Shown piece by piece: positions 25,045-64,000 of a stretch of DNA of 64,000 nt. The translations under genes and the position numbers were made by a program. Within the stretch, counting starts at the first letter, position 1. Every line of letters begins with the position of its first letter. The DNA lies in contig JAUFOQ010000004.1 in the NCBI GenBank assembly GCA_040285855.1, forward strand, positions 1,984,001 to 2,048,000, given 5' to 3'. The notes under the pieces are model-generated. The model did not search any database. It had not been told where the DNA came from and saw only the letters and a list, made by a program, of their open reading frames with translations. This DNA comes from Eukaryota sp. GEM-RC1. Its lineage: Eukaryota.

Positions 25045-25779
25045 TTAATAACAGACTCTACTCTTGTGTAATGATTCTAATGACTTTTTTGTTTGTCTGT
25101 TGATTGAGTTCCTACATTGAAAGACCACCTTAAGAGACGACTTCACCTTTAAAGCTTCAGCAATTGCAATTGCACCTTCATTACCAATTGAGTTGTGCTC
25201 TAGATTCACACAAGAAAGAGAGGAATTCACCTTTATAGCTTCTGCAATCGCTACAGCGCCTTCAGGACCAATTAAGTTGTAACTTAGACAGATCGTAGAA
25301 ACAGAAGAATTCACCTTTAAAGTTTCAGCAATTGCAACAGCACCTTCATTCCCAATTGAGTTTTTCATTAGATTGATCCTAGAAACAGAAGAATTCACCT
25401 TTAAAGCTTCCGCAATTGCAATAGCACCTTCATTACCAATTGAGTTGGCATGTAGATAGATCCTGGAAACAGACGAATTCACCTTTAAAGCTTCAGCAAT
25501 TGCAATAGCCCCTTGAGAACCAGCTGAGGTGTAACCTAGCTCGATCATATAAACCTCATTTCCCACCATTTGATCATAACAATTCTTCAACTTAGAGCTA
25601 AGCTTACTCCAATCAATAACAAGTTTCTTTTCTTCAACTTGCTGGACAGGAGACACACTTTCAGCAGACTTGATTGGTAAAACAAAGGAATCATCTTGAG
25701 ACCCAACTGAAGCAACACTGGATTCAGAATCCACAGACAGAGAGGTCAAACGACGAGAAGCAGCGGAGTGGACTGACAA
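25045..25779 (-). CDS. LRR cassette 1 (type A, 6 modules, divergent)
   Basis: 28-aa repeats; ORF start is TTG, first in-frame ATG at MVGNEV. Confidence 0.7.
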   Translation of the reverse strand: MSVHSAASRRLTSLSVDSESSVASVGSQDDSFVLPIKSAESVSPVQQVEEKKLVIDWSKLSSKLKNCYDQMVGNEVYMIELGYTSAGSQGAIAIAEALKVNSSVSRIYLHANSIGNEGAIAIAEALKVNSSVSRINLMKNSIGNEGAVAIAETLKVNSSVSTICLSYNLIGPEGAVAIAEAIKVNSSLSCVNLEHNSIGNEGAIAIAEALKVKSSLKVVFQCRNSINRQTKKSLESLHKSRVCY

Positions 25780-26762
25780 AAGTTCTTCATTTAGGGAGGA
25801 GATGATGGAGGACTGGTGTTGAAGAAGGGTGGAAGTAGTTGTAATGAATTGTTCGTTAATCTGTGGTTGGAAGATACAGTTCGAGTAATAAGGTTATGAG
25901 GTTTTCCTGACTTTAAATCTCACGTTTTTCAACATGCTATCTACATTTCCGATTTTTGTTCTCCAGCTGGTTTACAGAGTACAGATTCATATTCATTACA
26001 GTGTAGCTTAGTGAATGTTAGATAAGTTACTCTATTAAAGATGTCCAAAGACCGGTTCTGTGTGTTGTGACAAATACAAAACAAGATGTCACATTTAATG
26101 AAAGATCATTAAAATAAAATCTAACGAACAACCTAATTCTAACCAGTAGTTAGCACCAAGAGATATATCACCAAAACGTTGTTATTGTGGTGTGTTTGTG
26201 ATATACCACCACCATTTGATTTCCTCCTATTGACTGCACCATTCAATACCACTATTTTGGCAATTCTTTGTCTATAACTAACAGGTTGGTTGCGCACATA
26301 AAAATGAATACATATAAAAACTCATGTAGAATTAGCATTCAAAATAATCAAAACATCATTCAGTTACAGTGAATCTTTCAAAAGCTTTTTCTTGAGAGAA
26401 AATACAATTATTTTGATTATGAGTCAGTATGTTGATGATTCCAAAAGTGTAAACAATTGATATTAAGTGGCATTATTTCATATACTAATTGATATCTGGT
26501 GTTGTTGAAAACAATAGCAAATGTACTACTAAATATGACGTGTCTTATTCGCCAGAGTAGTAGTATTGTATCTGAACATCTGCTAAGCAGCTTTGGTATT
26601 GGTGTATCTGTGTGTCACTTTGGAGTTGTATTTGAGATAATGATTGTTCTGACCTAAACGATATTTGAAGTATGAAATACATTCACCTGATGATGGGGCT
26701 TTTGATAAGAAATCATTTATGATTTTTGAGCAATGTGATCTTTATGTCTAAGGAAAATATCT

Positions 26763-27287
26763 TTAGAAACGCATTCTATTTTTGTGCAGTGGTTTTAATG
26801 ACTGTTGTGTTTGACTGTTGATTGAGTTGTTACCTAGATAGATCTCAGTAACAGAAGAATTCACCTTTAAAGCTTCAGCAATTGCAATAGCGCCTTCATT
26901 ACCAATTGAGTTGTTCTCTAGATAGATCTGAGAAACAGAAGAATTCACCTTTAAAGCTTCAGCAATTGCAATAGCGCCTTCATTACCAATTGAGTTGCTA
27001 CGTAGATAGATCACAGTAACAGACGAATTCACCTTTAAAGCTTGAGCAATTGCAATATCGCCTCCAGGACCAATTGAGTTGGTACCTAGATCGATCACAG
27101 TAACAGAATAATTCACCTTTAAAGCTTCAGCAATTGCAATAGCGCCCTCATTACCAATTGAGTTGTTCTCTAGATAGATCTCAGTAACAGAAGAATTCAC
27201 CTTTAAAGCTTCAGCAATTGCAATAGCGCCTTCAGGACCAATTGAGTTGTTACATAGATTGATCGTAGACAAATCATTTCCCACCAT
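26763..27287 (-). CDS. LRR cassette 2 (type B, 6 modules)
   Basis: ATG MVGNDL, 28-aa repeats, KPLHKNRMRF cap. Confidence 0.7.
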   Translation of the reverse strand: MVGNDLSTINLCNNSIGPEGAIAIAEALKVNSSVTEIYLENNSIGNEGAIAIAEALKVNYSVTVIDLGTNSIGPGGDIAIAQALKVNSSVTVIYLRSNSIGNEGAIAIAEALKVNSSVSQIYLENNSIGNEGAIAIAEALKVNSSVTEIYLGNNSINSQTQQSLKPLHKNRMRF

Positions 27288-28428
27288 TCTCCTCCTTAAA
27301 TGAAGAGCTTTTGTCAGTCCACTCCGATGCTTCTCGTCGTTTGACCTCTCTGTCTGTGGATTCTGAATCCAGTGTTGCTTCAGTTGGGTCTCCAGATTGC
27401 CCTATTTTACAACGCTAACCTTTGGTTGGAAGATACAGTTCGAGTAATAAGTTTATGAGCTTTACTTAAATCTCACGTCTTTCAACTGGCTATCTACATT
27501 TGCGATTTTTGTTTTCCAGCTGGTTTACAGAGTACATATTCCTTACAGTGTGGCTTAGAGAATGTTAGATTATTTACTCTATTAAAGATGTCCAAAGACC
27601 GGTCCTGTGTGTTGAGACAAATACAAAACAAGATGTCATATTTATTTAAAGATCATCAAAACAAAATGTAACTAACAACTAATTCTAACCAGTCGTCAGC
27701 ACCAAGTGATATATCTACATATATTTTTTTCCAGTTTAAATTGAGGAGTTTCCGAACAAATTCTGAACAGACAGTTTTAAACAATACAATCTCTTAAGTT
27801 AAATAACTAATGCTTCCCTATAGAGAAACCGTGGAAGCATAACATTGTTATTGTGGTGTGTTTGTGATATACCAACACCACCAGTTGATTTCCTCCTATT
27901 GACTGCACCATTCAAGAAAACTATTTTGGCAATTCTTTGTCTATAACTGACAGGTTTTTTCCGCACATAGCAATGATTACATATAAAAACACATGTAAAC
28001 TTACCAAAGAAAATAATCAAAGCATCATTCAGTTACACTGAATCTTTCAAAAGCTTTTCCTTGAGAGAAAATGTAATCGTTTTGATTATGAGTCAGTATG
28101 TTGATTCCAAAAGTGTAAACAATTGATATTAAGTTGCATTCTTTCATATACTAATTGATATCTGGTGTTGTTGAAAACTATAGCAAATGTACTACTAAAT
28201 ATGACGTGTCTTATTCGCCAGAGTAGTAGTATTGTATCTGAACATCTGCTAAGCAGCTTTGGTATTGGTGTATCTGTGTGTCACTTTGGAGTTGTATTTG
28301 AGATAATGATTGTTCTGACCTAAACGATATTTGAAGTATGTAATACATTCACCTGATGATGGGGCTTTTGATAAGAAATCATTTATGATTATTGAACAAT
28401 GTGATCTTTATGTCTAAGGAAAATATCT

Positions 28429-28617
28429 TTAGAAACGCATTCTATTTTTGTGCAGTGGTTTTAATGACTGTTGTGTTTGACTGTTGATTGAGTTGTTACC
28501 TAGATAGATCTCAGTAACAGAAGAATTCACCTTTAAAGCTTCAGCAATTGGAATAGCGCCTTCACTACCAATTGAGTTGCTACGTAGATAGATCCCAGAA
28601 ACCTCATTTCTCACCAT
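28429..28617 (-). CDS. LRR cassette 3 (type B minimal, 2 modules)
   Basis: 62-aa ORF, first module plus cap. Confidence 0.55.
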   Translation of the reverse strand: MVRNEVSGIYLRSNSIGSEGAIPIAEALKVNSSVTEIYLGNNSINSQTQQSLKPLHKNRMRF

Positions 28618-29639
28618 TCTCCTCCTTAAATGAAGAGCTTTTGTCAGTCCACTCCGATGCTTCTCGTCGTTTGACCTCTCTGTCTGTGGATTCTGAATCC
28701 AGTGTTGCTTCAGTTGGGTCTCCAGATTGCCCTATTTTACAACGCTAACCTTTGGTTGGAAGATACAGTTCGCGTAATAAGGTTATGAGCTTTACTTAAA
28801 TCTCACGTCTTTCAACTGGCTATCTACATTTGCGATTTTTGTTTTCCAGCTGGTTTACAGAGTACATATTCCTTACAGTGTGGCTTAGTGAATGTTAGAT
28901 AAGTTACTCTATTAAAGATGTCCAAAGACCGGTTTTGTGTGTTGTGACAAATACAAAACAAGATGTCACATTTAATGAAAGATCATTAAAATAAAATCTA
29001 ACGAACAACCTAATTCTAACCAGTAGTTAGCACCAAGAGATATATCACCAAAACGTTGTTATTGTGGTGTGTTTGTGATATACCACCACCATTTGATTTC
29101 CTCCTATCGATTGCACCATTCAATAACACTATTTTGGCAATTCATTGTCTATAACTAACAGGTTTGTTGCGCACATAAAAATGAATACATATAAAAACAA
29201 ATGTAAAATTACCATTGAAAATAATCAAAGCATCATTCAGTTACAGTGAATCTTTCAAAAGCTTTTTCTTGAGAGAAAATACAATTATTTTGATTATGAG
29301 TCAGTATGTTGATCATTCCAAAAGTGTAAACAATTGATATTAAGTTGCATTCTTTCATATACTAATTGATATCTGGTGTTGTTGAAAACTATAGCAAATG
29401 TACTACTAAATATGACGTGTCTTATTCGCCAGAGTAGTAGTATTGTATCTGAACATCTGCTAAGCAGCTTTGGTATTGGTGTATCTGTGTGTCACTTTGG
29501 AGTTGTATTTGAGATAATGATTGTTCTGACCTAAACGATATTTGAAGTATGTAATACATTCACCTGATGATGGGGCTTTTGATAAGAAATCATTTATGAT
29601 TATTGAACAATGTGATCTTTATGTCTAAGGAAAATATCT

Positions 29640-29828
29640 TTAGAAACGCATTCTATTTTTGTGCAGTGGTTTTAATGACTGTTGTGTTTGACTGTTGATT
29701 GAGTTGTTACCTAGATAGATCTCAGTAACAGAAGAATTCACCTTTAAAGCTTCAGCAATTGGAATAGCGCCTTCACTACCAATTGAGTTGCTACGTAGAT
29801 AGATCCCAGAAACCTCATTTCTCACCAT
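29640..29828 (-). CDS. LRR cassette 4 (type B minimal)
   Basis: 62-aa ORF identical to cassette 3. Confidence 0.55.
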   Translation of the reverse strand: MVRNEVSGIYLRSNSIGSEGAIPIAEALKVNSSVTEIYLGNNSINSQTQQSLKPLHKNRMRF

Positions 29829-29990
29829 TCTCCTCCTTAAATGAAGAGCTTTTGTCAGTCCACTCCGATGCTTCTCGTCGTTTGACCTCTCTGTCTGTGG
29901 ATTCTGAATCCAGTGTTGCTTCAGTTGGGTCTCCAGATTGCCCTATTTTACAACGCTAACCTTTGGTTGGAAGATACAGTTCGCGTAATA

Positions 29991-30620
29991 ACCATGAACA
30001 AAGACATAACTGTTTGAACTGGTGATTAACCAAGTACGTTACGTTTTTTTGTCACTACAAGACCAGCTTCTGAGAAAAGTCTTTCATTGGGGATGGAAGT
30101 GCATTGAACAGGAAACCGACTCTGATTTTGTTTCCATTAAGTCACTATGTCAATTGACTTAACGGTTCCTTCAAATACACACACAACTCATCTTCTTCAT
30201 GAGTGTCGATGTCTTTCACATCCGAATCGTCGGAAATTTTATCACGAATATCCAATGAAGATGCATCAGAGTCTGACATCTGTTCAGCATATGCATGATA
30301 AATTTGTTGTACATCCGGAAATACAGATTCGGTGTTGAAAGTTCTAGTAGTTTTACGTTTTTTGAGTTTTGGGTTCAATAAACAAAGCAAATAGGCTGTG
30401 AAATTGCTCATATGATGTACTAGTATGTATTGCCTCACTTTGGAGTACATGATTTCAAATATTTTCTTAAACAACGTATAATATTTTATATGTTTAAAAG
30501 AGTTTCACGTACGTCAACGTGACGCGACGTGACGCAACGTAAGAGGTGACACGGAAATATTCTACGTTGCGTCTCGTCACGCAACAACTTGTGACGCATC
30601 GTGATCATTTGCCAACACTA
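29991..30620 (-). mobile_element. Truncated duplicate of the hAT element (one TIR only)
   Basis: Matches 23165-23794; part of the segmental duplication. Confidence 0.88.
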
Positions 30621-31870
30621 CTGTTCAGCCTTTTCAAGATGGCCATTTGAATCATTCAAAATGGACTCTTTGTAGACTTTTGCAAACGGGTCAACTGTGG
30701 TAAAATCAACCACAACTTGAGATGAATCCAGGAAAGGAGCAATTAGATCACCACGCCGAGAATCAAACACATTTTATTGTTATTATAATGTTTCAGAAGA
30801 GGTTTAATTTTGCAACTATAGTTTAACATATCTTAAGTGACACTACAAACATTTCCTGTAACTGACAGCAAGTCAAAAGGGGGCTGTAGATCTGATATTC
30901 CGGACACAAATAGAATTATTAAGCAAATCACCAAATAGCCCTAGTCGAAGACGCATATTTTGCTTCCAAGCATCATTGTTCAAATGTAAACCTAAAGGTC
31001 TAGGTTGTTGAGTGATGTAGCTAGAACAGATGATGTAAAACAAAAAACCGCCTTTCATTTACATTTACATTTACATTTACAATTAAAAAATATTAACAAC
31101 GGAGATACTAATACATCCACATCATCTCAGCTTCATGTCCCAATTCAAAGAGACTGTTTAAAATCGAATCAATGCTTTGACGAGGAACATGTCAACCTTC
31201 TTTCCAATCACTTTCATAAAACAAAATTCTTTCCATACTATACTGCTTACACTTTGCTGAAAGTGTGAAAATTTTTGTCCCAAAAAGCCATGTAAAGAGC
31301 AATAGCAAAATGATGGAAAACAAACGGATTGTGTCGACGAGAATTCTTTTGATAATTAATTCACTATAAAGATCTGATTTTTTCCTTTCAGCAGTTCCAA
31401 GAGCTTACTAATTTTCGTCTAAAATTTTGTTAATAGAAGATGAGTTACAATGATCAACTGTAGTAAAGTCCATAATTAGTTCTGGAGGGGACAAACGAGA
31501 ATCAATCAACTCTCCTCTTCTCTAATCTCTCATAAATGAGTTAGACAAAGTTCTAAAAACTGATTCGATTCTCCCATGAACACTATTGGTCTTGAACAAT
31601 TTTAAACATTGATCACTAAACTGTTGTAAATGATTGATCATAAATGAATAGACTTATGACAGTTGCCCACATGATTGAAAGAGGCTAAAGAAGAACCACA
31701 TACACAAGTAGACTTTTGACGGAGACCAACAAACATTTCAGCTAACATCAAGCAAATGTTGATAAGCTATTCATGATCTTTTAAGTGGAAACTATATCTT
31801 TGAGGATATCGAATTTATTTTTAAAGTGAAAGAAGTTATCATTATATCCCAGGAATTCATGTTTAGCAAG

Positions 31871-32605
31871 TTAATAACAGACTCTACTCTTGTGTAATGA
31901 TTCTAATGACTTTTTTGTTTGTCTGTTGATTGAGTTCCTACATTGAAAGACCACCTTAAGAGACGACTTCACCTTTAAAGCTTCAGCAATTGCAATTGCA
32001 CCTTCATTACCAATTGAGTTGTGCTCTAGATTCACACAAGAAAGAGAGGAATTCACCTTTATAGCTTCTGCAATCGCTACAGCGCCTTCAGGACCAATTA
32101 AGTTGTAACTTAGACAGATCGTAGAAACAGAAGAATTCACCTTTAAAGTTTCAGCAATTGCAACAGCACCTTCATTCCCAATTGAGTTTTTCATTAGATT
32201 GATCCTAAAAACAGAAGAATTCACCTTTAAAGCTTCCGCAATTGCAATAGCACCTTCATTACCAATTGAGTTGGCATGTAGATAGATCCTGGAAACAGAC
32301 GAATTCACCTTTAAAGCTTCAGCAATTGCAATAGCCCCTTGAGAACCAGCTGAGGTGTAACCTAGCTCGATCATATAAACCTCATTTCCCACCATTTGAT
32401 CATAACAATTCTTCAACTTAGAGCTAAGCTTACTCCAATCAATAACAAGTTTCTTTTCTTCAACTTGCTGGACAGGAGACACACTTTCAGCAGACTTGAT
32501 TGGTAAAACAAAGGAATCATCTTGAGACCCAACTGAAGCAACACTGGATTCAGAATCCACAGACAGAGAGGTCAAACGACGAGAAGCAGCGGAGTGGACT
32601 GACAA
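31871..32605 (-). CDS. LRR cassette 5 (type A, duplicate of cassette 1)
   Basis: One amino-acid difference (S to F) from 25045-25779. Confidence 0.7.
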   Translation of the reverse strand: MSVHSAASRRLTSLSVDSESSVASVGSQDDSFVLPIKSAESVSPVQQVEEKKLVIDWSKLSSKLKNCYDQMVGNEVYMIELGYTSAGSQGAIAIAEALKVNSSVSRIYLHANSIGNEGAIAIAEALKVNSSVFRINLMKNSIGNEGAVAIAETLKVNSSVSTICLSYNLIGPEGAVAIAEAIKVNSSLSCVNLEHNSIGNEGAIAIAEALKVKSSLKVVFQCRNSINRQTKKSLESLHKSRVCY

Positions 32606-33584
32606 AAGTTCTTCATTTAGGGAGGAGATGATGGAGGACTGGTGTTGAAGAAGGGTGGAAGTAGTTGTAATGAATTGTTCGTTAATCTTTGGTTGGAAAA
32701 TACAGTTTGAGTATTAAGGTTATGAGGTTTTTCGGACCTTAAAATCTCACGTTTTTCAACAGGCTTTCTACATTTACGATTTTCGTTTTCCAGCTGGTTT
32801 ACAGAATACATATTCATACTCATTACAGTGTAGCTTAGTGAGTGCTAGATAAGTTACTCTATTAAAGATGTACAAAGATCGGTTCTGTGTGTTGAGACAA
32901 ATACAAAACAAGATGTGACCTTTAATTAAAGACCATTCACAATCTACGAACAACCAAATTCTAACCAGTTGTTAGCACCAAGTGATATATCACCAAAACG
33001 TTGTTATTGTGGTGTGTTTGTGATATACCACCACCATTTGATTTCCTCCTATTGACTGCACCATTCAATACCACTATTTTGGCAATTCTTTGTCTATAAC
33101 TAACAGGTTGGTTGCGCACATAAAAATGAATACATATAAAAACTCATGTAGAATTAGCATTCAAAATAATCAAAACATCATTCAGTTACAGTGAATCTTT
33201 CAAAAGCTTTTTCTTGAGAGAAAATACAATTATTTTGATTATGAGTCAGTATGTTGATGATTCCAAAAGTGTAAACAATTGATATTAAGTTGCATTCTTT
33301 CATATACTAATTGATATCTGGTGTTGTTGAAAACTATAGCAAATGTACTACTAAATATAACGTGTCTTATTCGCCAGAGTAGTAGTATTGTATCTGAACA
33401 TCTACTAAGCAGCTTTGGTATTGGTGTATCTGTGTGTCACTTTGGAGTTGTATTTGAGATAATGATTGTTCTGACCTAAACGATATTTGAAGTATGTAAT
33501 ACATTCACCTGATGATGGGGCTTTTGATAAGAAATCATTTATGATTATTGAACAATGTGATCTTTATGTCTAAGGAAAATATCT

Positions 33585-34025
33585 TTAGAAACGCATTCTA
33601 TTTTTGTGCAGTGGTTTTAATGACTGTTGTGTTTGACTGTCGATTGAGTTGTTACCTAGATAGATCTCAGTAACAGAAGAATTCACCTTTAAAGCTTCAG
33701 CAATTGCAATAGCGCCTTCATTACCAATTGAGTTGTTACCTAGATCGATCACAGTAACAGACGAATTCACCTTTAAAGCTTGAGCAATTGCAATATCGCC
33801 TCCAGGACCAATTCAGTTGGTACCTAGATCGATCACAGTAACAGAATAATTCACCTTTAAAGCTTCAGCAATTGCAATAGCGCCCTCATTACCAATTGAG
33901 TTGTTCTCTAGATAGATCTCAGTAACAGAAGAATTCACCTTTAAAGCTTCAGCAATTGCAATAGCGCCTTCAGGACCAATTGAGTTGTTACATAGATTGA
34001 TCGTAGACAAATCATTTCCCACCAT
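33585..34025 (-). pseudogene. LRR cassette 6 (type B, 5 modules, internal stop)
   Basis: TCA to TGA at 33813-33815 splits the ORF. Confidence 0.7.
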
Positions 34026-35167
34026 TCTCCTCCTTAAATGAAGAGCTTTTGTCAGTCCACTCCGATGCTTCTCGTCGTTTGACCTCTCTGTCTGTGGATT
34101 CTGAATCCAGTGTTGCTTCAGTTGGGTCTCCAGATTGCCCTATTTTACAACGCTAACCTTTGGTTGGAAGATACAGTTCGAGTAATAAGGCTATGAGCTT
34201 TACTTAAATCTCACGTCTTTCAACTGGCTATCTACATTTGCGATTTTTGTTTTCCAGCTGGTTTACAGAGTACATATTCCTTACAGTGTGGCTTAGAGAA
34301 TGTTAGATTATTTACTCTATTAAAGATGTCCAAAGACTGGTCCTGTGTGTTTAGACAAATACAAAACAAGATGTCATATTTATTTAAAGATCATCAAAAC
34401 AAAATGTAACTAACAACTAATTCTAACCAGTCGTCAGCACCAAGTGATATATCTACATATATTTTTTTTCCAGTTTAAATTGAGGAGTTTCCGAACAAAT
34501 TCTGAACAGACAGTTTTAAACAATGCAATCCCTTAAGTTAAATAACTAATGCTTCCCTATAGAGAAACCGTGGAAGCATAACATTGTTATTGTGGTGTGT
34601 TTGTGATATACCACCACCACCAGTTGATTTCCTCCTATTGACTGCACCATTCAAGAAAACTATTTATGCAATTCTTTGTCTATAACTGACAGGTTTTTTC
34701 CGCACATAGCAATGATTACATATAAAAACACATGTAAACTTACCAAAGAAAATAATCAAAGCATCATTCAGTTACACTGAATCTTTCAAAAGCTTTTCCT
34801 TGAGAGAAAATGTAATCGTTTTGATTATGAGTCAGTATGTTGATTCCAAAAGTGTAAACAATTGATATTAAGTTGCATTCTTTCATATACTAATTGATAT
34901 CTGGTGTTGTTGAAAACTATAGCAAATGTACTACTAAATATGACGTGTCTTATTCGCCAGAGTAGTAGTATTGTATCTGAACATCTGCTAAGCAGCTTTG
35001 GTATTGGTGTATCTGTGTGTCACTTTGGAGTTGTATTTGAGATAATGATTGTTCTGACCTAAACGATATTTGAAGTATGTAATACATTCACCTGATGATG
35101 GGGCTTTTGATAAGAAATCATTTATGATTATTGAACAATGTGATCTTTATGTCTAAGGAAAATATCT

Positions 35168-35356
35168 TTAGAAACGCATTCTATTTTTGTGCAGTGGTTT
35201 TAATGACTGTTGTGTTTGACTGTTGATTGAGTTGTTACCTAGATAGATCTCAGTAACAGAAGAATTCACCTTTAAAGCTTCAGCAATTGGAATAGCGCCT
35301 TCACTACCAATTGAGTTGCTACGTAGATAGATCCCAGAAACCTCATTTCTCACCAT
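35168..35356 (-). CDS. LRR cassette 7 (type B minimal)
   Basis: 62-aa ORF. Confidence 0.55.
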   Translation of the reverse strand: MVRNEVSGIYLRSNSIGSEGAIPIAEALKVNSSVTEIYLGNNSINSQTQQSLKPLHKNRMRF

Positions 35357-36498
35357 TCTCCTCCTTAAATGAAGAGCTTTTGTCAGTCCACTCCGATGCT
35401 TCTCGTCGTTTGACCTCTCTGTCTGTGGATTCTGAATCCAGTGTTGCTTCAGTTGGGTCTCCAGATTGCCCTATTTTACAACGCTAACCTTTGGTTGGAA
35501 GATACAGTTCGAGTAATAAGGCTATGAGCTTTACTTAAATCTCACGTCTTTCAACTGGCTATCTACATTTGCGATTTTTGTTTTCCAGCTGGTTTACAGA
35601 GTACATATTCCTTACAGTGTGGCTTAGAGAATGTTAGATTATTTACTCTATTAAAGATGTCCAAAGACCGGTCCTGTGTGTTGAGACAAATACAAAACAA
35701 GATGTCATATTTATTTAAAGATCATCAAAACAAAATGTAACTAACAACTAATTCTAACCAGTCGTCAGCACCAAGTGATATATCTACATATATTTTTTTT
35801 CCAGTTTAAATTGAGGAGTTTCCGAACAAATTCTGAACAGACAGTTTTAAACAATACAATCTCTTAAGTTAAATAACTAATGCTTCCCTATAGAGAAACC
35901 GTGGAAGCATAACATTGTTATTGTGGTGTGTTTGTGATATACCACCACCACCAGTTGATTTCCTCCTATTGACTGCACCATTCAAGAAAACTATTTTGGC
36001 AATTCTTTGTTTATAACTGACAGGTTTTTTCCGCACATAGCAATGATTACATATAAAAACACATGTAAACTTACCAAAGAAAATAATCAAAGCATCATTC
36101 AGTTACACTGAATCTTTCAAAAGCTTTTCCTTGAGAGAAAATGTAATCGTTTTGATTATGAGTCAGTATGTTGATTCCAAAAGTGTAAACAATTGATATT
36201 AAGTTGCATTCTTTCATATACTAATTGATATCTGGTGTTGTTGAAAACTATAGCAAATGTACTACTAAATATGACGTGTCTTATTCGCCAGAGTAGTAGT
36301 ATTGTATCTGAACAGCTGCTAAGCAGCTTTGGTATTGGTGTATCTGTGTGTCACTTTGGAGTTGTATTTGAGATAATGATTGTTCTGACCTAAACGATAT
36401 TTGAAGTATGTAATACATTCACCTGATGATGGGGCTTTTGATAAGAAATCATTTATGATTATTGAACAATGTGATCTTTATGTCTAAGGAAAATATCT

Positions 36499-36687
36499 TT
36501 AGAAACGCATTCTATTTTTGTGCAGTGGTTTTAATGACTGTTGTGTTTGACTGTTGATTGAGTTGTTACCTAGATAGATCTCAGTAACAGAAGAATTCAC
36601 CTTTAAAGCTTCAGCAATTGGAATAGCGCCTCCACTACCAATTGAGTTGCTACGTAGATAGATCCCAGAAACCTCATTTGTCACCAT
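36499..36687 (-). CDS. LRR cassette 8 (type B minimal)
   Basis: 62-aa ORF with two substitutions. Confidence 0.55.
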   Translation of the reverse strand: MVTNEVSGIYLRSNSIGSGGAIPIAEALKVNSSVTEIYLGNNSINSQTQQSLKPLHKNRMRF

Positions 36688-53413: not shown

Positions 53414-53602
53414 TTAGAAACGCATTCTATTTTTGTGCAGTGGTTTTAATGACTGTTGTGTTTGACTGTTGATTGAGTTGTTACCTAGATAGATCTCAGT
53501 AACAGAAGAATTCACCTTTAAAGCTTCAGCAATTGGAATAGCACCTTCACTACCAATTGAGTTGCTACGTAGATAGATCCCAGAAACCTCATTTCTCACC
53601 AT
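53414..53602 (-). CDS. LRR cassette 19 (type B minimal)
   Basis: 62-aa ORF. Confidence 0.55.
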   Translation of the reverse strand: MVRNEVSGIYLRSNSIGSEGAIPIAEALKVNSSVTEIYLGNNSINSQTQQSLKPLHKNRMRF

Positions 53603-54743
53603 TCTCCTCCTTAAATGAAGAGCTTTTGTCAGTCCACTCCGATGCTTCTCGTCGTTTGACCTCTCTGTCTGTGGATTCTGAATCCAGTGTTGCTTCAGTT
53701 GGGTCTCCAGATTGCCCTATTTTACAACGCTAACCTTTGGTTGGAAGATACAGTTCGCGTAATAAGGTTATGAGCTTTACTTAAATCTCACGTCTTTCAA
53801 CTGGCTATCTACATTTGCGATTTTTGTTTTCCAGCTGGTATACAGAGTACATATTCCTTACAGTGTGGCTTAGAGAATGTTAGATTATTTACTCTATTAA
53901 AGATGTCCAAAGACCGGTCCTGTGTGTTGAGACAAATACAAAACAAGATGTCATATTTAATTAAAGATCATCAAAACAAAATGTAACTAACAACTAATTC
54001 TAACCAGTCGTCAGCACCAAGTGATATATCTACATATATTTTTTTCCAGTTTAAATTGAGGAGTTTCCGAACAAATTCTGAACAGACAGTTTTAAACAAT
54101 ACAATCTCTTAAGTTAAATAACTAATGCTTCCCTATAGAGAAACCGTGGAAGCATAACATTGTTATTGTGGTGTGTTTGTGATATACCACCACCACCAGT
54201 TGATTTCCTCCTATTGACTGCACCATTCAAGAAAACTATTTTGGCAATTCTTTGTCTATAACTGACAGGTTTTTTCCGCACATAGCAATGATTACATATA
54301 AAAACACATGTAAACTTACCAAAGAAAATAATTAAAGCATCATTCAGTTACACTGAATCTTTCAAAAGCTTTTCCTTGGGAGAAAATGTAATCGTTTTGA
54401 TTATGAGTCAGTATGTTGATTCCAAAAGTGTAAACAATTGATATTAAGTTGCATTCTTTCATATACTAATTGATATCTGGTGTTGTTGAAAACTATAGCA
54501 AATGTACTACTAAATGTGACGTGTCTTATTCGCCAGAGTAGTAGTATTGTATCTGAACATCTGCTAAGCAGCTTTGGTATTGGTGTATCTGTGTGTCACT
54601 TTGGAGTTCTATTTGAGATAATGATTGTTCTGACCTAAACGATATTTGAAGTATGTAATACATTCACCTGATGATGGGGCTTTTGATAAGAAATCATTTA
54701 TGATTATTGAACAATGTGATCTTTATATCTAAGGAAAGTATCT

Positions 54744-56302: not shown

Positions 56303-56713
56303 CTAAGGAAAATATCTTTGGAAACGCATTCTATTCTTGTGTAGTGATTTTAATGACTGTTGTGTTTGACTGTTGATTGAGTTGTTACCTAGATAGATAT
56401 CAGAAACAGACGAATTCACCTTTAAAGCTTCAGCAATTGCAATAGCGCCTTCAGGACCAATTGAGTTGTTATCTAGACCGATCGCAGAAACCTCATTTCT
56501 CACCATCTGATCATAACAGTTCTTCAGCTCAGAGCTCAGCTTTCTCCAATCAATAACAAGTTTCTTCTCTTCAACTTGCTGGACAGGAGATACATGTTTA
56601 ACCGATTTGATTGGTAAAACAGTGTCATCTTGGGAGGTAGAAGAAGCAACACTGGATTCAGAATCCACAGACAGAGAGGTTAAACGACGGGAAGCAGCAG
56701 AGTAGACTGACAA
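56303..56713 (-). CDS. LRR cassette 21 (type A, 2 modules, stop lost)
   Basis: 136-aa ORF; TAA to CAA adds QRYFP. Confidence 0.6.
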   Translation of the reverse strand: MSVYSAASRRLTSLSVDSESSVASSTSQDDTVLPIKSVKHVSPVQQVEEKKLVIDWRKLSSELKNCYDQMVRNEVSAIGLDNNSIGPEGAIAIAEALKVNSSVSDIYLGNNSINSQTQQSLKSLHKNRMRFQRYFP

Positions 56714-57806
56714 AAGTTCTTCATTTAGGGAGGAGATGATGGAGGACTGGTGTTGAAGATGGGTGGAAGTAGTTGTAATGAATTGTTCGTTAATCTTTGG
56801 TTGGAAAATACAGTTTGAGTATTAAGGTTATGAGGTTTTTCGGACCTTAAAATCTCACGTTTTTCAACAGGCTTTCTACATTTACGATTTTCGTTTTCCA
56901 GCTGGTTTACAGAATACATATTCATACTCATTACAGTGTAGCTTAGTGAGTGCTAGATAAGTTACTCTATTAAAGATGTACAAAGATCGGTTCTGTGTGT
57001 TGAGACAAATACAAAACAAGATGTGACCTTTAATTAAAGACCATTCACAATCTACGAACAACCAAATTCTAACCAGTTGTTAGCACCAAGTGATATATCT
57101 AAATACTTTTTTCCAGTTTTCATTGTGGAACTTCTGAACAAATTCTAAACACAAAGTTTTTAACAATACAAATTCTTAATTTCGTCAACTGTAAACTTCC
57201 CCATAAAGAAACCGTGGAAGCAAAACTTTGATATTGTGGTGTGCTCGTGTTATAACTCCGCCATTTGATTGTCTCCTGCTGACTGCAAACTATTTTGGCA
57301 ATTCTTTGTCTATAACTAACAGGTTTATTATGCACATGGCAATGAGTACATATAAAAACACATGTAAAATTATCATTGAAAACAAACAAAGCATCATTTA
57401 GTTACATTGAATCTTTCAAAAACTTGTTCTTGAGCGAAAATACAATCGTGTTAATTATGAGTCAAAATGTTGATGATTCCAAGAGTGTAAACATTCGAAA
57501 TAATGTAGCATTATTTCAGAAACTAATTACTATCTGGTGTTTTTGACAACAATAGTAAATGAACTACTGAACACGATGTGTCTATTCGCCAGAGTAGTCC
57601 TGTATCTGAAAATCTGCTAAGCAGTTTTGGTATTGGTTTCTTTGTGGGTCACTTTGGAGTTGTATTTGAGATAATGATTGCTCTGACCTAAACGATATTT
57701 GAAGTGTAATACATTCATTCTTTGATGGCTGATGATGATGGTGCTCTTGATAAGAAATCATTTATGATTTTTGAGTAATGTGATTTTATGTCCAAGGAAA
57801 ATATCT

Positions 57807-58628
57807 TTAGAAATAAATTCTATTCTTGTGTAGTGATTTTAATGACTGTTGTGTTTGACTGTCGATTGAGTTGTTACCTAGATTGATCACAGTAACAGAC
57901 GAATTCAACTTTAAAGCTTCAGCAATTGCAATAGCGCCTCCAGGACCAATTGAGTTGTTAGATAGATCGATCCTAGTAACAGACGAATTCAACTTTAAAG
58001 CTTCAGCAATTGCAATAGCGCCTCCAGGACCAATTGAGTTGTTAGATAGATCGATCCTAGTAACAGACGAATTCAACTTTAAAGCTTCAGCAATTGCAAT
58101 AGCGCCTTCAGGACCAATTGAGTTGTTAGATAGATTGATCCTAGTAACAGAAACAGACGAATTCACCTTTAAAGCTTCAGCAATTGCAATAGCGCCTTCA
58201 GGACCAATTGAGTTGTTATGTAGATAGATATCAGAAACAGACGAATTCAGCTTTAAAGCTTCAGCAATTGCAATAGCGCCTTCAGGACCAATTGAGTTGT
58301 TATGTAGATAGATCCTGCTAACAGACGAATTCACCTTTAAAGCTTCAGCAATTGCAATAGCGCCTTCAGGACCAATTGAGTTGTTTCTTAGATCGATCGT
58401 AGAAGCCTCATTTCTCACCATCTGATCATAACAATTCTTCAACTTAGAGCTCAGCTTTCTCCAATCAATAACAAGTTTCTTCTCTTCAACTTGCTGGACA
58501 GGAGATACATGTTTAACCGATTTGATTGGTAAAACAGTGTCATCTTGGGAGGTAGAAGAAGCAACACTGGATTCAGAATCCACAGACAGAGAGGTTAAAC
58601 GACGGGAAGCAGCAGAGTAGACTGACAA
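57807..58628 (-). CDS. LRR cassette 22 (type A, 7 modules)
   Basis: 273-aa ORF; one module has a 2-aa insertion. Confidence 0.75.
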   Translation of the reverse strand: MSVYSAASRRLTSLSVDSESSVASSTSQDDTVLPIKSVKHVSPVQQVEEKKLVIDWRKLSSKLKNCYDQMVRNEASTIDLRNNSIGPEGAIAIAEALKVNSSVSRIYLHNNSIGPEGAIAIAEALKLNSSVSDIYLHNNSIGPEGAIAIAEALKVNSSVSVTRINLSNNSIGPEGAIAIAEALKLNSSVTRIDLSNNSIGPGGAIAIAEALKLNSSVTRIDLSNNSIGPGGAIAIAEALKLNSSVTVINLGNNSIDSQTQQSLKSLHKNRIYF

Positions 58629-59720
58629 AAGTTCTTCATTTAGGGAGGAGATGATGGAGGACTGGTGTTGAAGATGGGTGGAAGTAGTTGTAATGAATTG
58701 TTCGTTAATCTTTGGTTGGAAAATACAGTTTGAGTATTAAGGTTATGAGGTTTTTCGGACCTTAAAATCTCACGTTTTTCAACAGGCTTTCTACATTTAC
58801 GATTTTCGTTTTCCAGCTGGTTTACAGAATACATATTCATACTCATTACAGTGTAGCTTAGTGAGTGCTAGATAAGTTACTCTATTAAAGATGTACAAAG
58901 ATCGGTTCTGTGTGTTGAGACAAATACAAAACAAGATGTGACCTTTAATTAAAGACCATTCACAATCTACGAACAACCAAATTCTAACCAGTTGTTAGCA
59001 CCAAGTGATATATCTAAATACTTTTTCCAGTTTTCATTGTGGAACTTCTGAACAAATTCTAAACACAAAGTTTTTAACAATACAAATTCTTAATTTCGTC
59101 AACTGTAAACTTCCCCATAAAGAAACCGTGGAAGCAAAACTTTGATATTGTGGTGTGCTCGTGTTATAACTCCGCCATTTGATTGTCTCCTGCTGACTGC
59201 AAACTATTTTGGCAATTCTTTGTCTATAACTAACAGGTTTATTATGCACATGGCAATGAGTACATATAAAAACACATGTAAAATTATCATTGAAAACAAA
59301 CAAAGCATCATTTAGTTACATTGAATCTTTCAAAAACTTGTTCTTGAGCGAAAATACAATCGTGTTAATTATGAGTCAAAATGTTGATGATTCCAAGAGT
59401 GTAAACATTCGAAATAATGTAGCATTATTTCAGAAACTAATTACTATCTGGTGTTTTTGACAACAATAGTAAATGAACTACTGAACACGATGTGTCTATT
59501 CGCCAGAGTAGTCCTGTATCTGAAAATCTGCTAAGCAGTTTTGGTATTGGTTTCTTTGTGGGTCACTTTGGAGTTGTATTTGAGATAATGATTGCTCTGA
59601 CCTAAACGATATTTGAAGTGTAATACATTCATTCTTTGATGGCTGATGATGATGGTGCTCTTGATAAGAAATCATTTATGATTTTTGAGTAATGTGATTT
59701 TATGTCCAAGGAAAATATCT

Positions 59721-60542
59721 TTAGAAATAAATTCTATTCTTGTGTAGTGATTTTAATGACTGTTGTGTTTGACTGTCGATTGAGTTGTTACCTAGATTGA
59801 TCACAGTAACAGACGAATTCAACTTTAAAGCTTCAGCAATTGCAATAGCGCCTCCAGGACCAATTGAGTTGTTAGATAGATCGATCCTAGTAACAGACGA
59901 ATTCAACTTTAAAGCTTCAGCAATTGCAATAGCGCCTCCAGGACCAATTGAGTTGTTAGATAGATCGATCCTAGTAACAGACGAATTCAACTTTAAAGCT
60001 TCAGCAATTGCAATAGCGCCTTCAGGACCAATTGAGTTGTTAGATAGATTGATCCTAGTAACAGAAACAGACGAATTCACCTTTAAAGCTTCAGCAATTG
60101 CAATAGCGCCTTCAGGACCAATTGAGTTGTTATGTAGATAGATATCAGAAACAGACGAATTCAGCTTTAAAGCTTCAGCAATTGCAATAGCGCCTTCAGG
60201 ACCAATTGAGTTGTTATGTAGATAGATCCTGCTAACAGACGAATTCACCTTTAAAGCTTCAGCAATTGCAATAGCGCCTTCAGGACCAATTGAGTTGTTT
60301 CTTAGATCGATCGTAGAAGCCTCATTTCTCACCATCTGATCATAACAATTCTTCAACTTAGAGCTCAGCTTTCTCCAATCAATAACAAGTTTCTTCTCTT
60401 CAACTTGCTGGACAGGAGATACATGTTTAACCGATTTGATTGGTAAAACAGTGTCATCTTGGGAGGTAGAAGAAGCAACACTGGATTCAGAATCCACAGA
60501 CAGAGAGGTTAAACGACGGGAAGCAGCAGAGTAGACTGACAA
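59721..60542 (-). CDS. LRR cassette 23 (type A, 7 modules, same protein as 22)
   Basis: 273-aa ORF at a 1914-bp period. Confidence 0.75.
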   Translation of the reverse strand: MSVYSAASRRLTSLSVDSESSVASSTSQDDTVLPIKSVKHVSPVQQVEEKKLVIDWRKLSSKLKNCYDQMVRNEASTIDLRNNSIGPEGAIAIAEALKVNSSVSRIYLHNNSIGPEGAIAIAEALKLNSSVSDIYLHNNSIGPEGAIAIAEALKVNSSVSVTRINLSNNSIGPEGAIAIAEALKLNSSVTRIDLSNNSIGPGGAIAIAEALKLNSSVTRIDLSNNSIGPGGAIAIAEALKLNSSVTVINLGNNSIDSQTQQSLKSLHKNRIYF

Positions 60543-61634
60543 AAGTTCTTCATTTAGGGAGGAGATGATGGAGGACTGGTGTTGAAGATGGGTGGAAGTA
60601 GTTGTAATGAATTGTTCGTTAATCTTTGGTTGGAAAATACAGTTTGAGTATTAAGGTTATGAGGTTTTTCGGACCTTAAAATCTCACGTTTTTCAACAGG
60701 CTTTCTACATTTACGATTTTCGTTTTCCAGCTGGTTTACAGAATACATATTCATACTCATTACAGTGTAGCTTAGTGAGTGCTAGATAAGTTACTCTATT
60801 AAAGATGTACAAAGATCGGTTCTGTGTGTTGAGACAAATACAAAACAAGATGTGACCTTTAATTAAAGACCATTCACAATCTACGAACAACCAAATTCTA
60901 ACCAGTTGTTAGCACCAAGTGATATATCTAAATACTTTTTCCAGTTTTCATTGTGGAACTTCTGAACAAATTCTAAACACAAAGTTTTTAACAATACAAA
61001 TTCTTAATTTCGTCAACTGTAAACTTCCCCATAAAGAAACCGTGGAAGCAAAACTTTGATATTGTGGTGTGCTCGTGTTATAACTCCGCCATTTGATTGT
61101 CTCCTGCTGACTGCAAACTATTTTGGCAATTCTTTGTCTATAACTAACAGGTTTATTATGCACATGGCAATGAGTACATATAAAAACACATGTAAAATTA
61201 TCATTGAAAACAAACAAAGCATCATTTAGTTACATTGAATCTTTCAAAAACTTGTTCTTGAGCGAAAATACAATCGTGTTAATTATGAGTCAAAATGTTG
61301 ATGATTCCAAGAGTGTAAACATTCGAAATAATGTAGCATTATTTCAGAAACTAATTACTATCTGGTGTTTTTGACAACAATAGTAAATGAACTACTGAAC
61401 ACGATGTGTCTATTCGCCAGAGTAGTCCTGTATCTGAAAATCTGCTAAGCAGTTTTGGTATTGGTTTCTTTGTGGGTCACTTTGGAGTTGTATTTGAGAT
61501 AATGATTGCTCTGACCTAAACGATATTTGAAGTGTAATACATTCATTCTTTGATGGCTGATGATGATGGTGCTCTTGATAAGAAATCATTTATGATTTTT
61601 GAGTAATGTGATTTTATGTCCAAGGAAAAAATCT

Positions 61635-62288
61635 TTAGAAATAAATTCTATTCTTGTGTAGTGATTTTAATGACTGTTGTGTTTGACTGTCGATTGAGTT
61701 GTTACCTAGATCGATCCTAGTAACAGACGAATTCAACTTTAAAGCTTCAGCAATTGCAATAGCGCCTTCAGGACCAATTGAGTTGTTAGATAGATTGATC
61801 CTAGTAACAGAAACAGACGAATTCACCTTTAAAGCTTCAGCAATTGCAATAGCGCCTTCAGGACCAATTGAGTTGTTATGTAGATAGATATCAGAAACAG
61901 ACGAATTCAGCTTTAAAGCTTCAGCAATTGCAATAGCGCCTTCAGGACCAATTGAGTTGTTATGTAGATAGATCCTGCTAACAGACGAATTCACCTTTAA
62001 AGCTTCAGCAATTGCAATAGCGCCTTCAGGACCAATTGAGTTGTTTCTTAGATCGATCGTAGAAGCCTCATTTCTCACCATCTGATCATAACAATTCTTC
62101 AACTTAGAGCTCAGCTTTCTCCAATCAATAACAAGTTTCTTCTCTTCAACTTGCTGGACAGGAGATACATGTTTAACCGATTTGATTGGTAAAACAGTGT
62201 CATCTTGGGAGGTAGAAGAAGCAACACTGGATTCAGAATCCACAGACAGAGAGGTTAAACGACGGGAAGCAGCAGAGTAGACTGACAA
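61635..62288 (-). CDS. LRR cassette 24 (type A, 5 modules)
   Basis: 217-aa ORF; cassette 22 minus two modules. Confidence 0.72.
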   Translation of the reverse strand: MSVYSAASRRLTSLSVDSESSVASSTSQDDTVLPIKSVKHVSPVQQVEEKKLVIDWRKLSSKLKNCYDQMVRNEASTIDLRNNSIGPEGAIAIAEALKVNSSVSRIYLHNNSIGPEGAIAIAEALKLNSSVSDIYLHNNSIGPEGAIAIAEALKVNSSVSVTRINLSNNSIGPEGAIAIAEALKLNSSVTRIDLGNNSIDSQTQQSLKSLHKNRIYF

Positions 62289-63381
62289 AAGTTCTTCATT
62301 TAGGGAGGAGATGATGGAGGACTGGTGTTGAAGATGGGTGGAAGTAGTTGTAATGAATTGTTCGTTAATCTTTGGTTGGAAAATACAGTTTGAGTGTTAA
62401 GGTTATGAGGTTTTTCGGACCTTAAAATCTCACGTTTTTCAACAGGCTTTCTACATTTACGATTTTCGTTTTCCAGCTGGTTTACAGAATACATATTCAT
62501 ACTCATTACAGTGTAGCTTAGTGAGTGCTAGATAAGTTACTCTATTAAAGATGTACAAAGATCGGTTCTGTGTGTTGAGACAAATACAAAACAAGATGTG
62601 ACCTTTAATTAAAGACCATTCACAATCTACGAACAACCAAATTCTAACCAGTTGTTAGCACCAAGTGATATATCTAAATACTTTTTTCCAGTTTTCATTG
62701 TGGAACTTCTGAACAAATTCTAAACACAAAGTTTTTAACAATACAAATTCTTAATTTCGTCAACTGTAAACTTCCCCATAAAGAAACCGTGGAAGCAAAA
62801 CTTTGATATTGTGGTGTGTTCGTGTTATAACTCCGCCATTTGATTGTCTCCTGCTGACTGCAAACTATTTTGGCAATTCTTTGTCTATAACTAACAGGTT
62901 TATTATGCACATGGCAATGAGTACATATAAAAACACATGTAAAATTATCATTGAAAACAAACAAAGCATCATTTAGTTACATTGAATCTTTCAAAAACTT
63001 GTTCTTGAGCGAAAATACAATCGTGTTAATTATGAGTCAAAATGTTGATGATTCCAAGAGTGTAAACATTCGAAATAATGTAGCATTATTTCAGAAACTA
63101 ATTACTATCTGGTGTTTTTGACAACAATAGTAAATGAACTACTGAACACGATGTGTCTATTCGCCAGAGTAGTCTTGTATCTGAAAATCTGCTAAGCAGG
63201 TTTGGTATTGGTTTCTTTGTGGGTCACTTTGGAGTTGTATTTGAGATAATGATTGCTCTGACCTAAACGATATTTGAAGTGTAATACATTCATTCTTTGA
63301 TGGCTGATGATGATGGTGCTCTTGATAAGAAATCATTTATGATTTTTGAGTAATGTGATTTTATGTCCAAGGAAAATATCT

Positions 63382-64000
63382 TTAGAAACGCATTCTATTC
63401 TTGTGTAGTGATTTTAATGACTGTTGTGTTTGACTGTTGATTGAGTTGTTAGATAGATAGATCACAGTAACAGACGAATTCAACTTTAAAGCTTCAGCAA
63501 TTGCAGTAGCGCCTTCATTACCAATTGAGTTGTTATGTAGATAGATCACAGTAACAGACGAATTCAACTTTAAAGCTTCAGCAATTGCAGTAGCGCCTTC
63601 ATTACCAATTGAGTTGCTAGATAGATCGATCCTAGTAACAGACGAATTCAACTTTAAAGCTTCAGCAATTGCAATAGCGCCTCCAGGACCAATTGAGTTG
63701 TTATGTAGATAGATATCAGAAACAGACGAATTCAGCTTTAAAGCTTCAGCAATTGCAATAGCGCCTTCAGGACCAATTGAGTTGTTATGTAGATAGATCC
63801 TGCTAACAGACGAATTCACCTTTAAAGCTTCAGCAATTGCAATAGCGCCTTCAGGACCAATTGAGTTGTTTCTTAGATCGATCGTAGAAGCCTCATTTCT
63901 CACCATCTGATCATAACAATTCTTCAACTTAGAGCTAAGCTTACTCCAATCAATAACAAGTTTCTTCTCTTCAACTTGCTGGACAGGAGATACATGTTTA
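63382..64000 (-). CDS. LRR cassette 25 (type A, 6 modules, 5' end outside window)
   Basis: Frame stays open to the window edge. Confidence 0.7.
   Translation of the reverse strand, partial: KHVSPVQQVEEKKLVIDWSKLSSKLKNCYDQMVRNEASTIDLRNNSIGPEGAIAIAEALKVNSSVSRIYLHNNSIGPEGAIAIAEALKLNSSVSDIYLHNNSIGPGGAIAIAEALKLNSSVTRIDLSSNSIGNEGATAIAEALKLNSSVTVIYLHNNSIGNEGATAIAEALKLNSSVTVIYLSNNSINSQTQQSLKSLHKNRMRF

What the first reader, a model, noticed from the sequence alone, without database searches (positions are those of the whole stretch)
25045..64000. Library of 25 variable LRR cassettes, a candidate recombination-diversified receptor repertoire
Seen: 25 head-to-tail cassettes carry 2, 3, 5, 6, 7, 10 or 18 exact 84-bp modules between a conserved N-linker (IDWxKLSSxLKNCYDQM, type A) and a cap (QTQQSLKxLHKNR). 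Only one cassette has a stop inside the LRR part, while the upstream parts are frameshifted, deleted or inverted. None has the RING/B-box head of the homologous gene at 606-2145. Known: lamprey VLRs and trypanosome VSG or Borrelia vls systems use libraries of partial cassettes copied by gene conversion into an expressed locus. Inference: this could be an analogous donor library, or a family of LRR-only sensors or adaptors, diversifying the recognition surface of TRIM-like E3 ligases in an organism that is probably a protist.
Basis: partly seen in the sequence, partly recalled or inferred. Interest (0 to 1): 0.88.

Follow-up and report, generated by a model that had tools for sequence, protein, structure and literature searches.

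The report
Spare LRR tails for TRIM-like gene
A free-living anaerobic protist carries a tandem row of at least 25 headless copies of the binding half of a TRIM-like ubiquitin-ligase gene. These copies share one pool of shuffled leucine-rich repeats with a single intact copy of the gene and likely serve as its heritable stock of spare recognition surfaces; programmed, lamprey-style assembly is untested.

Summary
The array is real: 25 minus-strand cassettes with 2-18 LRR modules, running off the window end. It is less diverse than stated: 15 distinct proteins, 11 near-identical 2-module copies, and 14 cassettes with a linker destroyed by one shared inversion. Each unit is the 3' half (linker + LRR) of a RING-B-box-coiled-coil-LRR gene plus about 1 kb of its 3' flank, and all begin at one shared junction. 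Matching database records carry the label Eukaryota sp. GEM-RC1 (the metamonad Skoliomonas). The partner is not the gene at 606 but an intact paralogue, P0002 (GEMRC1_008804), on a contig of the same length. Its 272-residue tail is covered by 13 exact peptides from array cassettes; five other paralogues need 50-86. Modules show pN/pS 4.6 on the concave face, 0.40 in the scaffold, no frameshifts, and recombination between codons 6 bp apart. Best reading: a partial duplication amplified by unequal crossover that trades sequence with P0002 and likely supplies it with new LRR surfaces across generations, as fungal NWD pseudogenes do. Direction of transfer, expression and any programmed mechanism are untested; no genome or reads were available. 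New variant of a known kind.

The parts
25045..64000 (-). Tandem array of at least 25 headless [linker-LRR-cap-stop] cassettes, each preceded by a spacer of usually ~1 kb; open at the right end of the window
25045..25878 (-). U01, type A, 6 divergent modules (near-twin U05 at 31871-32704)
26763..27437 (-). U02, type B (inverted linker), 6 modules; related units U06 at 33585-34175 (5 modules, in-frame stop) and U13 at 44899-45573 (6 modules)
28429..53752 (-). Eleven near-identical 2-module type-B cassettes of 339 bp scattered over this span: U03 28429, U04 29640, U07 35168, U08 36499, U09 37828, U10 39158, U14 46563, U15 47380, U16 48587, U17 49917, U19 53414
   Evidence: 3 or fewer differences in 339 bp
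40488..41067 (-). U11, type A, 3 modules, one extra T in the linker (related U20 at 54744-55322 has an open linker)
42062..43903 (-). U12, type A, 18 modules with an internal 4-module block repeated about three times; shares a 96-residue exact peptide with P0002
51255..52421 (-). U18, type A, 10 modules that mix U12-type and U02-type strands
56318..56812 (-). U21, type A, 2 modules, stop codon lost (reads on to 56303)
57807..62387 (-). U22, U23 and U24, type A, 7/7/5 modules, each with one 90-bp module; gene model P0013 has the same LRR part as U24
63382..64000 (-). U25, type A, 6 modules; linker cut by the window end
58728..59720 (-). Example spacer. The first ~560 bp are homologous to the 3' flank of the gene at 606; it ends at the junction shared by all cassettes (xF[QK]PK loop). 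A DLKSGKP remnant lies 41 bp upstream of the junction in U01
606..2145 (+). Full-architecture paralogue (RING, two B-boxes, coiled coil, linker, 6 LRR), frameshifted at a G run near 860-867; corresponds to model P0001. An older relative, not the array's partner
9656..10315 (-). Solitary, more divergent headless copy (part of the linker + 6 LRR) with its own in-frame ATG
19664..19975 (+). Decayed RING + B-box fragment with a stop codon
23164..34002 (.). Recent segmental duplication, 23164-27180 to 29990-34002 (97.8%). The 1881-bp non-array parts differ at 5 sites, yet U02 and U06 already differ in module number

Best explanation
The array is a tandem stack of headless 3' halves of a TRIM-like RING-B-box-coiled-coil-LRR gene that shares one recombining sequence pool with the intact paralogue P0002, and it likely acts as a heritable reservoir that feeds P0002 new LRR binding faces by ordinary unequal crossover and short gene conversion. 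Shown: (1) unit anatomy and one shared junction; (2) mosaic spacers, linkers and modules; (3) excess amino-acid change on the concave strand with a conserved scaffold; (4) P0002's tail is built from array peptides. Inferred: (a) one partial duplication joined the 3' flank to the loop before the last coiled-coil helix; (b) crossover in the 300-bp linker or in the 84-bp modules swaps whole tails or parts of tails onto the head; (c) selection acts on the intact gene, and exchange keeps the cassettes open; (d) the protein is a cytosolic E3 ligase that recognises a fast-changing target such as a virus, an intracellular bacterium or a mobile-element protein.
For: Unit = xF[QK]PK-linker-LRR-cap plus 3' flank. 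The junction is shared by spacer lineages 14-15% apart, so the headless state is old. In 23 spacers aligned (U04 and U25 left out), 18 of 24 gap events are not multiples of 3; the LRR parts have none. A rough expectation is 7.6 frameshifts, P(0) about 5e-4. pN/pS over 49 distinct modules: concave codons 4.63, scaffold 0.40; 8 type-A linkers: 0.36. All four gametes occur between codons 19/21, 21/23 and 23/24, but not 18/19. P0002's tail tiles in 13 exact peptides (mean 20.9 aa), similar to 8 of 9 cassettes left out in turn (14.6-125 aa; divergent U01 4.9), against 3.3-5.4 aa for five other paralogues. 3 of 6 P0002 strands match array strands; 0 of 56 do in seven other paralogue models. P0002's linker combines an H allele seen only in U21-U24 with a segment seen only in U01/U05/U12. 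Of 18 pairs with both flanks under 1.2% apart, 8 of the 9 involving long type-A units differ in module number. The head matches RING and B-box families and TRIM structures, and the LRR fold matches NOD2. The model puts the junction in a loop before helix 244-281 (overall pLDDT 63).
Against: Direction of transfer is not shown: the shared alleles also fit flow from gene to array, or a cassette matching P0002 beyond 64000. 14 of 25 cassettes lack a usable linker, and 11 are redundant 2-module copies. Decay is visible: a stop in U06, a lost stop in U21, and scaffold changes such as A>P, A>D and G>C. The selection signals may all have been acquired in intact genes before copying. Some 1-base spacer indels may be nanopore errors, which would inflate the frameshift expectation. 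P0002 is known only as a predicted protein; its DNA, position and expression were not seen. Same contig is inferred from equal contig length. Pairwise pN/pS on recombining, non-independent modules is descriptive, not a formal test. No target or immune role was tested.
Confidence: 0.55

Rival explanations
1. Neutral by-product: the array is runaway amplification of a broken gene end in a repeat-rich genome. It looks selected only because its pieces were copied from working genes, and it gives nothing useful back.
For: 11 of 25 cassettes are one 2-module copy, and 14 of 25 have an inverted linker. There is a stop, a lost stop and radical scaffold changes. The neighbourhood holds transposon debris and other family fragments. 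The published genome for this organism label is 48% repetitive (PMC11316075 section 6).
Against: The junction is shared by lineages 14-15% apart, yet LRR frames are intact and 9 of 10 type-A linkers are open, with pN/pS 0.36, so repeated exchange with a selected gene is needed. P0002 holds allele combinations found in no single cassette seen. Once exchange happens, flow back to the gene is hard to avoid.
Confidence: 0.25
2. Programmed diversification like lamprey VLR, Borrelia vls or Anaplasma msp2: a dedicated, possibly induced mechanism copies cassette segments into P0002 at high rate within a clonal lineage.
For: One intact partner and many partial copies; patchwork within single modules; conserved 5' linker and 3' cap that could act as homology arms; module turnover faster than point mutation.
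Against: The partner gene is complete in the assembly. No 9-base or longer direct or inverted repeats flank 3 of 3 cassettes tested, and there is no G4-like motif. The cassettes themselves are rearranged and amplified, whereas VLR donors are not rearranged during copying (PMC3308329 passages). The repertoire is small and redundant.
Confidence: 0.1
3. The cassettes are expressed, either as LRR-only proteins from the ATG of the DQM/RRM motif or as alternative last exons spliced to an upstream head.
For: All 25 keep an in-frame ATG, and 24 have an open LRR frame. An AG is kept just inside the junction. Gene models join such blocks: P0013 (U24-like) and P0011 (head + three linker-LRR blocks).
Against: The ATG and the AG are ordinary coding letters of the parent gene. 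The spacer's recognisable part is 3' flank, not promoter. The gene at 606 reads through the junction without an intron. Two-module products are unlikely to fold as solenoids (inference). The gene models are predictions; P0001 uses a 37-base intron that spans the frameshift.
Confidence: 0.07
4. Assembly or polishing artefact: copy number or micro-mosaicism was created by long-read assembly and short-read correction of repeats.
For: The published assembly for this organism label used R9.4 nanopore reads, Canu, Nanopolish and Illumina correction (PMC11316075 section 17 and passages). Single-base homopolymer shifts break several family members. Some units differ by 0-0.1%.
Against: Units are 0.8-2.8 kb and mostly distinguishable (up to 15% apart). 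Variants are multi-base codon alleles and in-frame 84n changes with a codon-position pattern that errors would not give.
Confidence: 0.03

Closest known systems
Podospora NWD/HNWD family (het-d, het-e) WD40 repeat pool (PMC1805685, passages)
   Same: Repeats under concerted evolution across loci; a few surface codons under positive selection; pseudogene loci keep intact repeats through exchange with active loci; heritable and unprogrammed.
   Different: LRR, not WD40; a TRIM-like E3 head, not NACHT; the non-coding members form a dedicated tandem stack of 25 or more headless halves rather than a few dispersed pseudogenes; the pool looks specific to one partner gene.
Lamprey and hagfish VLR loci (PMC3308329 and PMC13428168, passages)
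   Same: Partial LRR cassettes and patchwork modules built from several donors; locus-specific cassette pools.
   Different: The VLR germline gene is incomplete and is assembled somatically with CDA1/2, from hundreds of donors that are not rearranged. Here the partner is complete, donors are whole 3' halves that rearrange, the predicted product is cytosolic, and somatic assembly is untested.
Anaplasma msp2, Borrelia vls and trypanosome VSG donor libraries (msp2 and VSG from PMC5816788 passages; vls details recalled)
   Same: Partial silent copies with conserved flanks around a variable core, and one complete locus that is a mosaic of them.
   Different: Those are surface antigens of parasites evading host antibodies, with demonstrated high-rate one-way conversion. 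This is a free-living cell, a predicted intracellular binder, with rate and direction unknown.
Tetrahymena 90-bp-exon LRR genes (PMC6564038, passages) and brown-algal ROCO LRR exon shuffling (PMC11378527, abstract)
   Same: Lineage-specific LRR expansion in a eukaryote outside animals and land plants; variable repeat number; ectopic recombination; diversifying selection (ROCO).
   Different: There each repeat is an exon of a complete gene. Here modules are intron-free, and the shuffling substrate is an array of headless gene halves.
Animal TRIM/RBCC E3 ligases (TRIM5, TRIM21, TRIM25; sequence hits, functions recalled)
   Same: RING, B-boxes, a predicted long coiled coil with fold-back helix, then a variable C-terminal binding domain.
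   Different: The C-terminal domain is a NOD2-like 28-residue LRR instead of PRY-SPRY. None of 7 named relatives labelled TZLM1-RC matched the LRR module profile.

Membership tests
VLR-type programmed LRR assembly | Incomplete germline recipient gene | tested here: not met
   P0002 is a complete 512-aa RING-B-box-CC-LRR model; seen as a protein model only
VLR-type programmed LRR assembly | Library of partial LRR cassettes near the recipient | tested here: inconclusive
   Cassettes shown; P0002 is on a contig of equal length but cannot be placed
VLR-type programmed LRR assembly | Patchwork modules templated by several cassettes | tested here: met
   Tiling and four-gamete results, at protein level for P0002; direction unknown
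VLR-type programmed LRR assembly | Somatic or clonal rearrangement driven by AID/APOBEC deaminases | not testable with these tools
   No genome and no reads listed
vls/msp2/VSG donor-cassette systems | Silent 5'-truncated copies with conserved flanks around a variable core | tested here: met
   Headless units with conserved linker and cap; silence itself untested
vls/msp2/VSG donor-cassette systems | High-rate one-way conversion into an expression site | not testable with these tools
   Needs reads or clones
vls/msp2/VSG donor-cassette systems | Surface antigen of a parasite | tested here: not met
   Product has a RING-B-box head; the labelled organism is a free-living bacterivore (PMC11603281 abstract listing and passages)
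NWD-type repeat pool under concerted evolution | Repeats exchanged within and between loci | tested here: met
   Identical modules in different cassettes, mosaic spacers, P0002 tiling
NWD-type repeat pool under concerted evolution | Few surface codons diversifying, remainder purifying | tested here: met
   pN/pS 4.63 against 0.40
NWD-type repeat pool under concerted evolution | Broken loci keep intact repeats | tested here: met
   0 frameshifts and 1 stop in 112 modules, against 18 non-3n gap events in spacers
NWD-type repeat pool under concerted evolution | NACHT domain and WD40 repeats (family membership proper) | tested here: not met
   Pfam finds RING, B-box and LRR_6: it works like the family but is not a member
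TRIM/RBCC proteins (parent gene) | RING then B-box(es) then coiled coil, in order | tested here: met
   Pfam, TRIM hits in PDB, predicted helices 164-221 and 244-281 (moderate confidence)
TRIM/RBCC proteins (parent gene) | E3 ligase activity and antiparallel dimer | not tested
   No assay; no complex prediction was run

The most novel reading that the evidence does not exclude
A free-living metamonad has independently evolved a cassette-based diversification system for an intracellular immune receptor: silent LRR tails are copied at high rate into one TRIM-like E3 gene, so that sister cells of a clone carry different recognition surfaces. That would be an adaptive-like repertoire in a single-celled eukaryote.
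Probability: 0.12. Interest if true: 0.92.

Novelty: new variant of a known kind. Interest (0 to 1): 0.62.

Why it matters
How free-living protists recognise viruses and intracellular invaders is largely unknown. This locus gives a concrete, culturable case: one TRIM-like gene with a strongly diversified LRR face and a stack of spare tails, apparently on the same contig. Donor libraries are known from parasites' surface antigens and from lamprey lymphocytes. I found no description of one for a cytosolic E3 ligase or in a free-living protist. The searches behind this were made; the genome paper's main text has no 'leucine-rich', 5 of its 6 listed supplements have no LRR term, and one scan and one oversized PDF were unreadable. 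Subscription journals are not covered. Even the unprogrammed version makes the question directly testable with long reads and sub-clones.

Tried and rejected
No whole genome is held. No sequencing run was listed for 56318-61634, so no read, copy-number or expression test could be made; this is no evidence either way. Metagenome scans found nothing: 115 pattern matches with none confirmed, and 0 matches for a cap motif. Exact look-ups of 10 ATG-started window ORFs were all absent. Placing P0002 by locus tag was rejected: P0013 (tag 9080) has U24's LRR part, 61 kb from tag 8890, so tags do not seem to be positional. The gene at 606 was rejected as partner. A decayed head in the spacer was rejected: the best alignments were not above shuffles (12, 25 and 84 of 200 reached the score), and the second half of the spacer has no clear source in window 1-23100. 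Only the DLKSGKP remnant stands out (16 of 20 bases in U01, 13 or fewer in five other spacers). No flanking repeats or G4 signal. No Rfam match. A search for longer forms returned only P0003. The scan's earlier findings returned nothing. The ESM Atlas gave B-box and B-box+LRR clusters at 0.86-0.92, leads only. Paper searches for 'GEM-RC1' and two analogue queries returned 0. P0011 (head + three linker-LRR blocks, another contig) could be a second such array or three adjacent genes merged by the predictor; without DNA it is left as a lead.
Full report
Observation. A six-frame motif scan finds 25 caps on the minus strand from 25057 to 63394, 11 IDW linkers and 14 copies of an alternative upstream motif. 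Parsing gives 112 LRR modules in cassettes of 2, 3, 5, 6, 7, 10 or 18, one in-frame stop (U06) and no frameshift; three modules are 90 bp. Eleven cassettes are one 339-bp unit differing at 3 or fewer sites. The array is cut by the window end.

Anatomy. Each cassette begins where the parent protein reads KPVxF[KQ]PK and runs through a linker of about 103 codons, the LRR modules and a cap. The spacer's first ~560 bp align with the 3' flank of the paralogue at 606 (about 70% in blastn). A unit is therefore the 3' half of the gene plus its downstream flank, the product expected from a partial tandem duplication. A DLKSGKP remnant lies 41 bp upstream of the junction in U01, followed by about 20 inserted bases that break the frame. 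Type-B units carry one shared lesion: about 110 bp of the linker inverted and the rest deleted. Spacers fall into lineages up to 15% apart, all with the same junction, and several units switch lineage at sharp points (U03, U05, U15, U17, U18), as unequal crossover gives. A 4-kb segmental duplication whose unique parts differ at 5 of 1881 sites already has copies differing in module number.

Organism and family. The closest database proteins are named models of Eukaryota sp. GEM-RC1. The literature calls this Skoliomonas sp. GEMRC or GEM-RC, a free-living anaerobic metamonad with a 33.5-Mb, 48% repetitive genome (PMC11316075: passages and sections 6 and 17; PMC11603281: passages). Twelve named models carry this RING head, five of them with LRRs. 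A profile search of 1.84 billion representatives returned further RING-B-box proteins. Of 167 proteins held, 11 match a profile of the array modules: 10 carry the GEM-RC1 label and one (P0034) is unnamed. None of the 7 named TZLM1-RC relatives matches. The predicted structure of P0002 has a confident LRR solenoid, closest to NOD2 (rmsd 1.7 A), and moderate-confidence long helices like a TRIM coiled coil, with the cassette junction in the loop before helix 244-281.

The partner gene. P0002 (GEMRC1_008804) is complete and is listed on a contig of the same length as P0001, the model of the gene at 606. It shares a 96-residue exact peptide with U12. Its 272-residue tail tiles fully with 13 exact array peptides (mean 20.9 aa). 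Eight of nine cassettes left out in turn give 14.6-125 aa; the divergent U01 gives 4.9. P0001, P0003, P0007, P0014 and P0015 give 3.3-5.4 aa. Three of its six strands, and one of five full modules, match the array exactly, against 0 of 56 strands in seven other models. Its linker pairs an allele seen only in U21-U24 with a segment seen only in U01, U05 and U12, completing a four-gamete set, and its TRIYLG strand joins halves found in different cassettes. P0002 belongs to this array's recombining pool. Its DNA and position were not available, and the comparison is at protein level.

Selection. Across 49 distinct modules, pN/pS is 4.63 at the five exposed codons of the xxIxLxxN strand and 0.40 in the scaffold; without U01 and U05 it is 6.29 and 0.43. 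Codon alleles 6 bp apart recombine in three of four adjacent pairs tested. Eight type-A linkers give 0.36. Spacers hold 18 non-3n gap events per 218 substitutions; scaled to the module pool, this predicts about 7.6 frameshifts against 0 seen. These are descriptive statistics on non-independent sequences, and some spacer indels may be sequencing errors. They show that the pool has passed through working genes. They do not show that the array itself is selected. Against in-place selection stand the stop, the lost stop, A>P, A>D and G>C scaffold changes, and the spread of the broken 2-module unit.

Mechanism. The simplest model that fits both sides is an unprogrammed reservoir. Homologous recombination in the linker, the modules and the flank reshuffles cassettes: 8 of 9 close pairs of long type-A units differ in module number. 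It would now and then move a tail or a tract onto the head, where selection acts. Exchange in the other direction would keep the cassettes open, as argued for WD40 repeats in Podospora NWD pseudogenes (PMC1805685 passages). The neutral by-product reading remains possible because direction is unknown. Programmed assembly lacks its defining marks here: the recipient is complete, the donors rearrange, and no flanking signals were found in 3 of 3 cassettes (VLR features from PMC3308329 passages). It cannot be excluded without reads. An immune role is inferred from the TRIM-like architecture and the diversified face only.

Verdict. A real and unusual locus; a new variant of repeat-pool diversification rather than a demonstrated adaptive system. 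Interest 0.62.

Noticed in passing
window 22878-23794: 917-bp element with 13-bp terminal inverted repeats and an 8-bp target duplication. This is hAT-like by recalled criteria; Pfam gave no family for its ORF. A truncated second copy lies inside the array's segmental duplication from 29990.
   Followed up: partly
LRR modules, e.g. window 42062-43594: Module DNA is rich in 6-bp palindromes: 6.2 per 84 bp against about 2 in synonymous shuffles (P 0.004-0.023 for three modules, post hoc) and about 1 or fewer in spacer, linker and another gene. Cause unknown.
   Followed up: partly
P0011 (GEMRC1_009458, another contig): The gene model has a head followed by three linker-LRR blocks, the later two starting at VFKPK, the loop where the window's cassettes start. 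It is either a second array of this kind or merged neighbouring genes.
   Followed up: no
P0006, P0016, P0076: Other family models are truncated, extended or apparently frameshifted at the same DLKSGKP-V-x-FKP loop, which may be a break-prone site.
   Followed up: no
window 860-867; P0008, P0009, P0010, P0012: The gene at 606 and four head models appear broken by single-base shifts, at least the first in a homopolymer run, probably sequencing errors; intact family members may be undercounted.
   Followed up: partly
window 8619-8889 and 9394-9537: Two patches of a 30-bp tandem repeat with the same core, next to the solitary LRR copy at 9656.
   Followed up: no
window 16164-18764: Mobile-element debris: a SWIM zinc finger ORF and a reverse-transcriptase fragment.
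   Followed up: no
window 20224-22368: Unrelated long ORF with LRR_4-type repeats followed by a long, probably coiled-coil region.
   Followed up: no
P0021-P0037 and cluster members: Further RING-B-box proteins with varied non-LRR C-termini; 10 were looked up and carry GEM-RC1 or TZLM1-RC labels, suggesting a wider TRIM-like expansion in the genus.
   Followed up: partly
window 4733-5524: ORF ending in a single LRR_6-like repeat of a different LRR family (weak).
   Followed up: no
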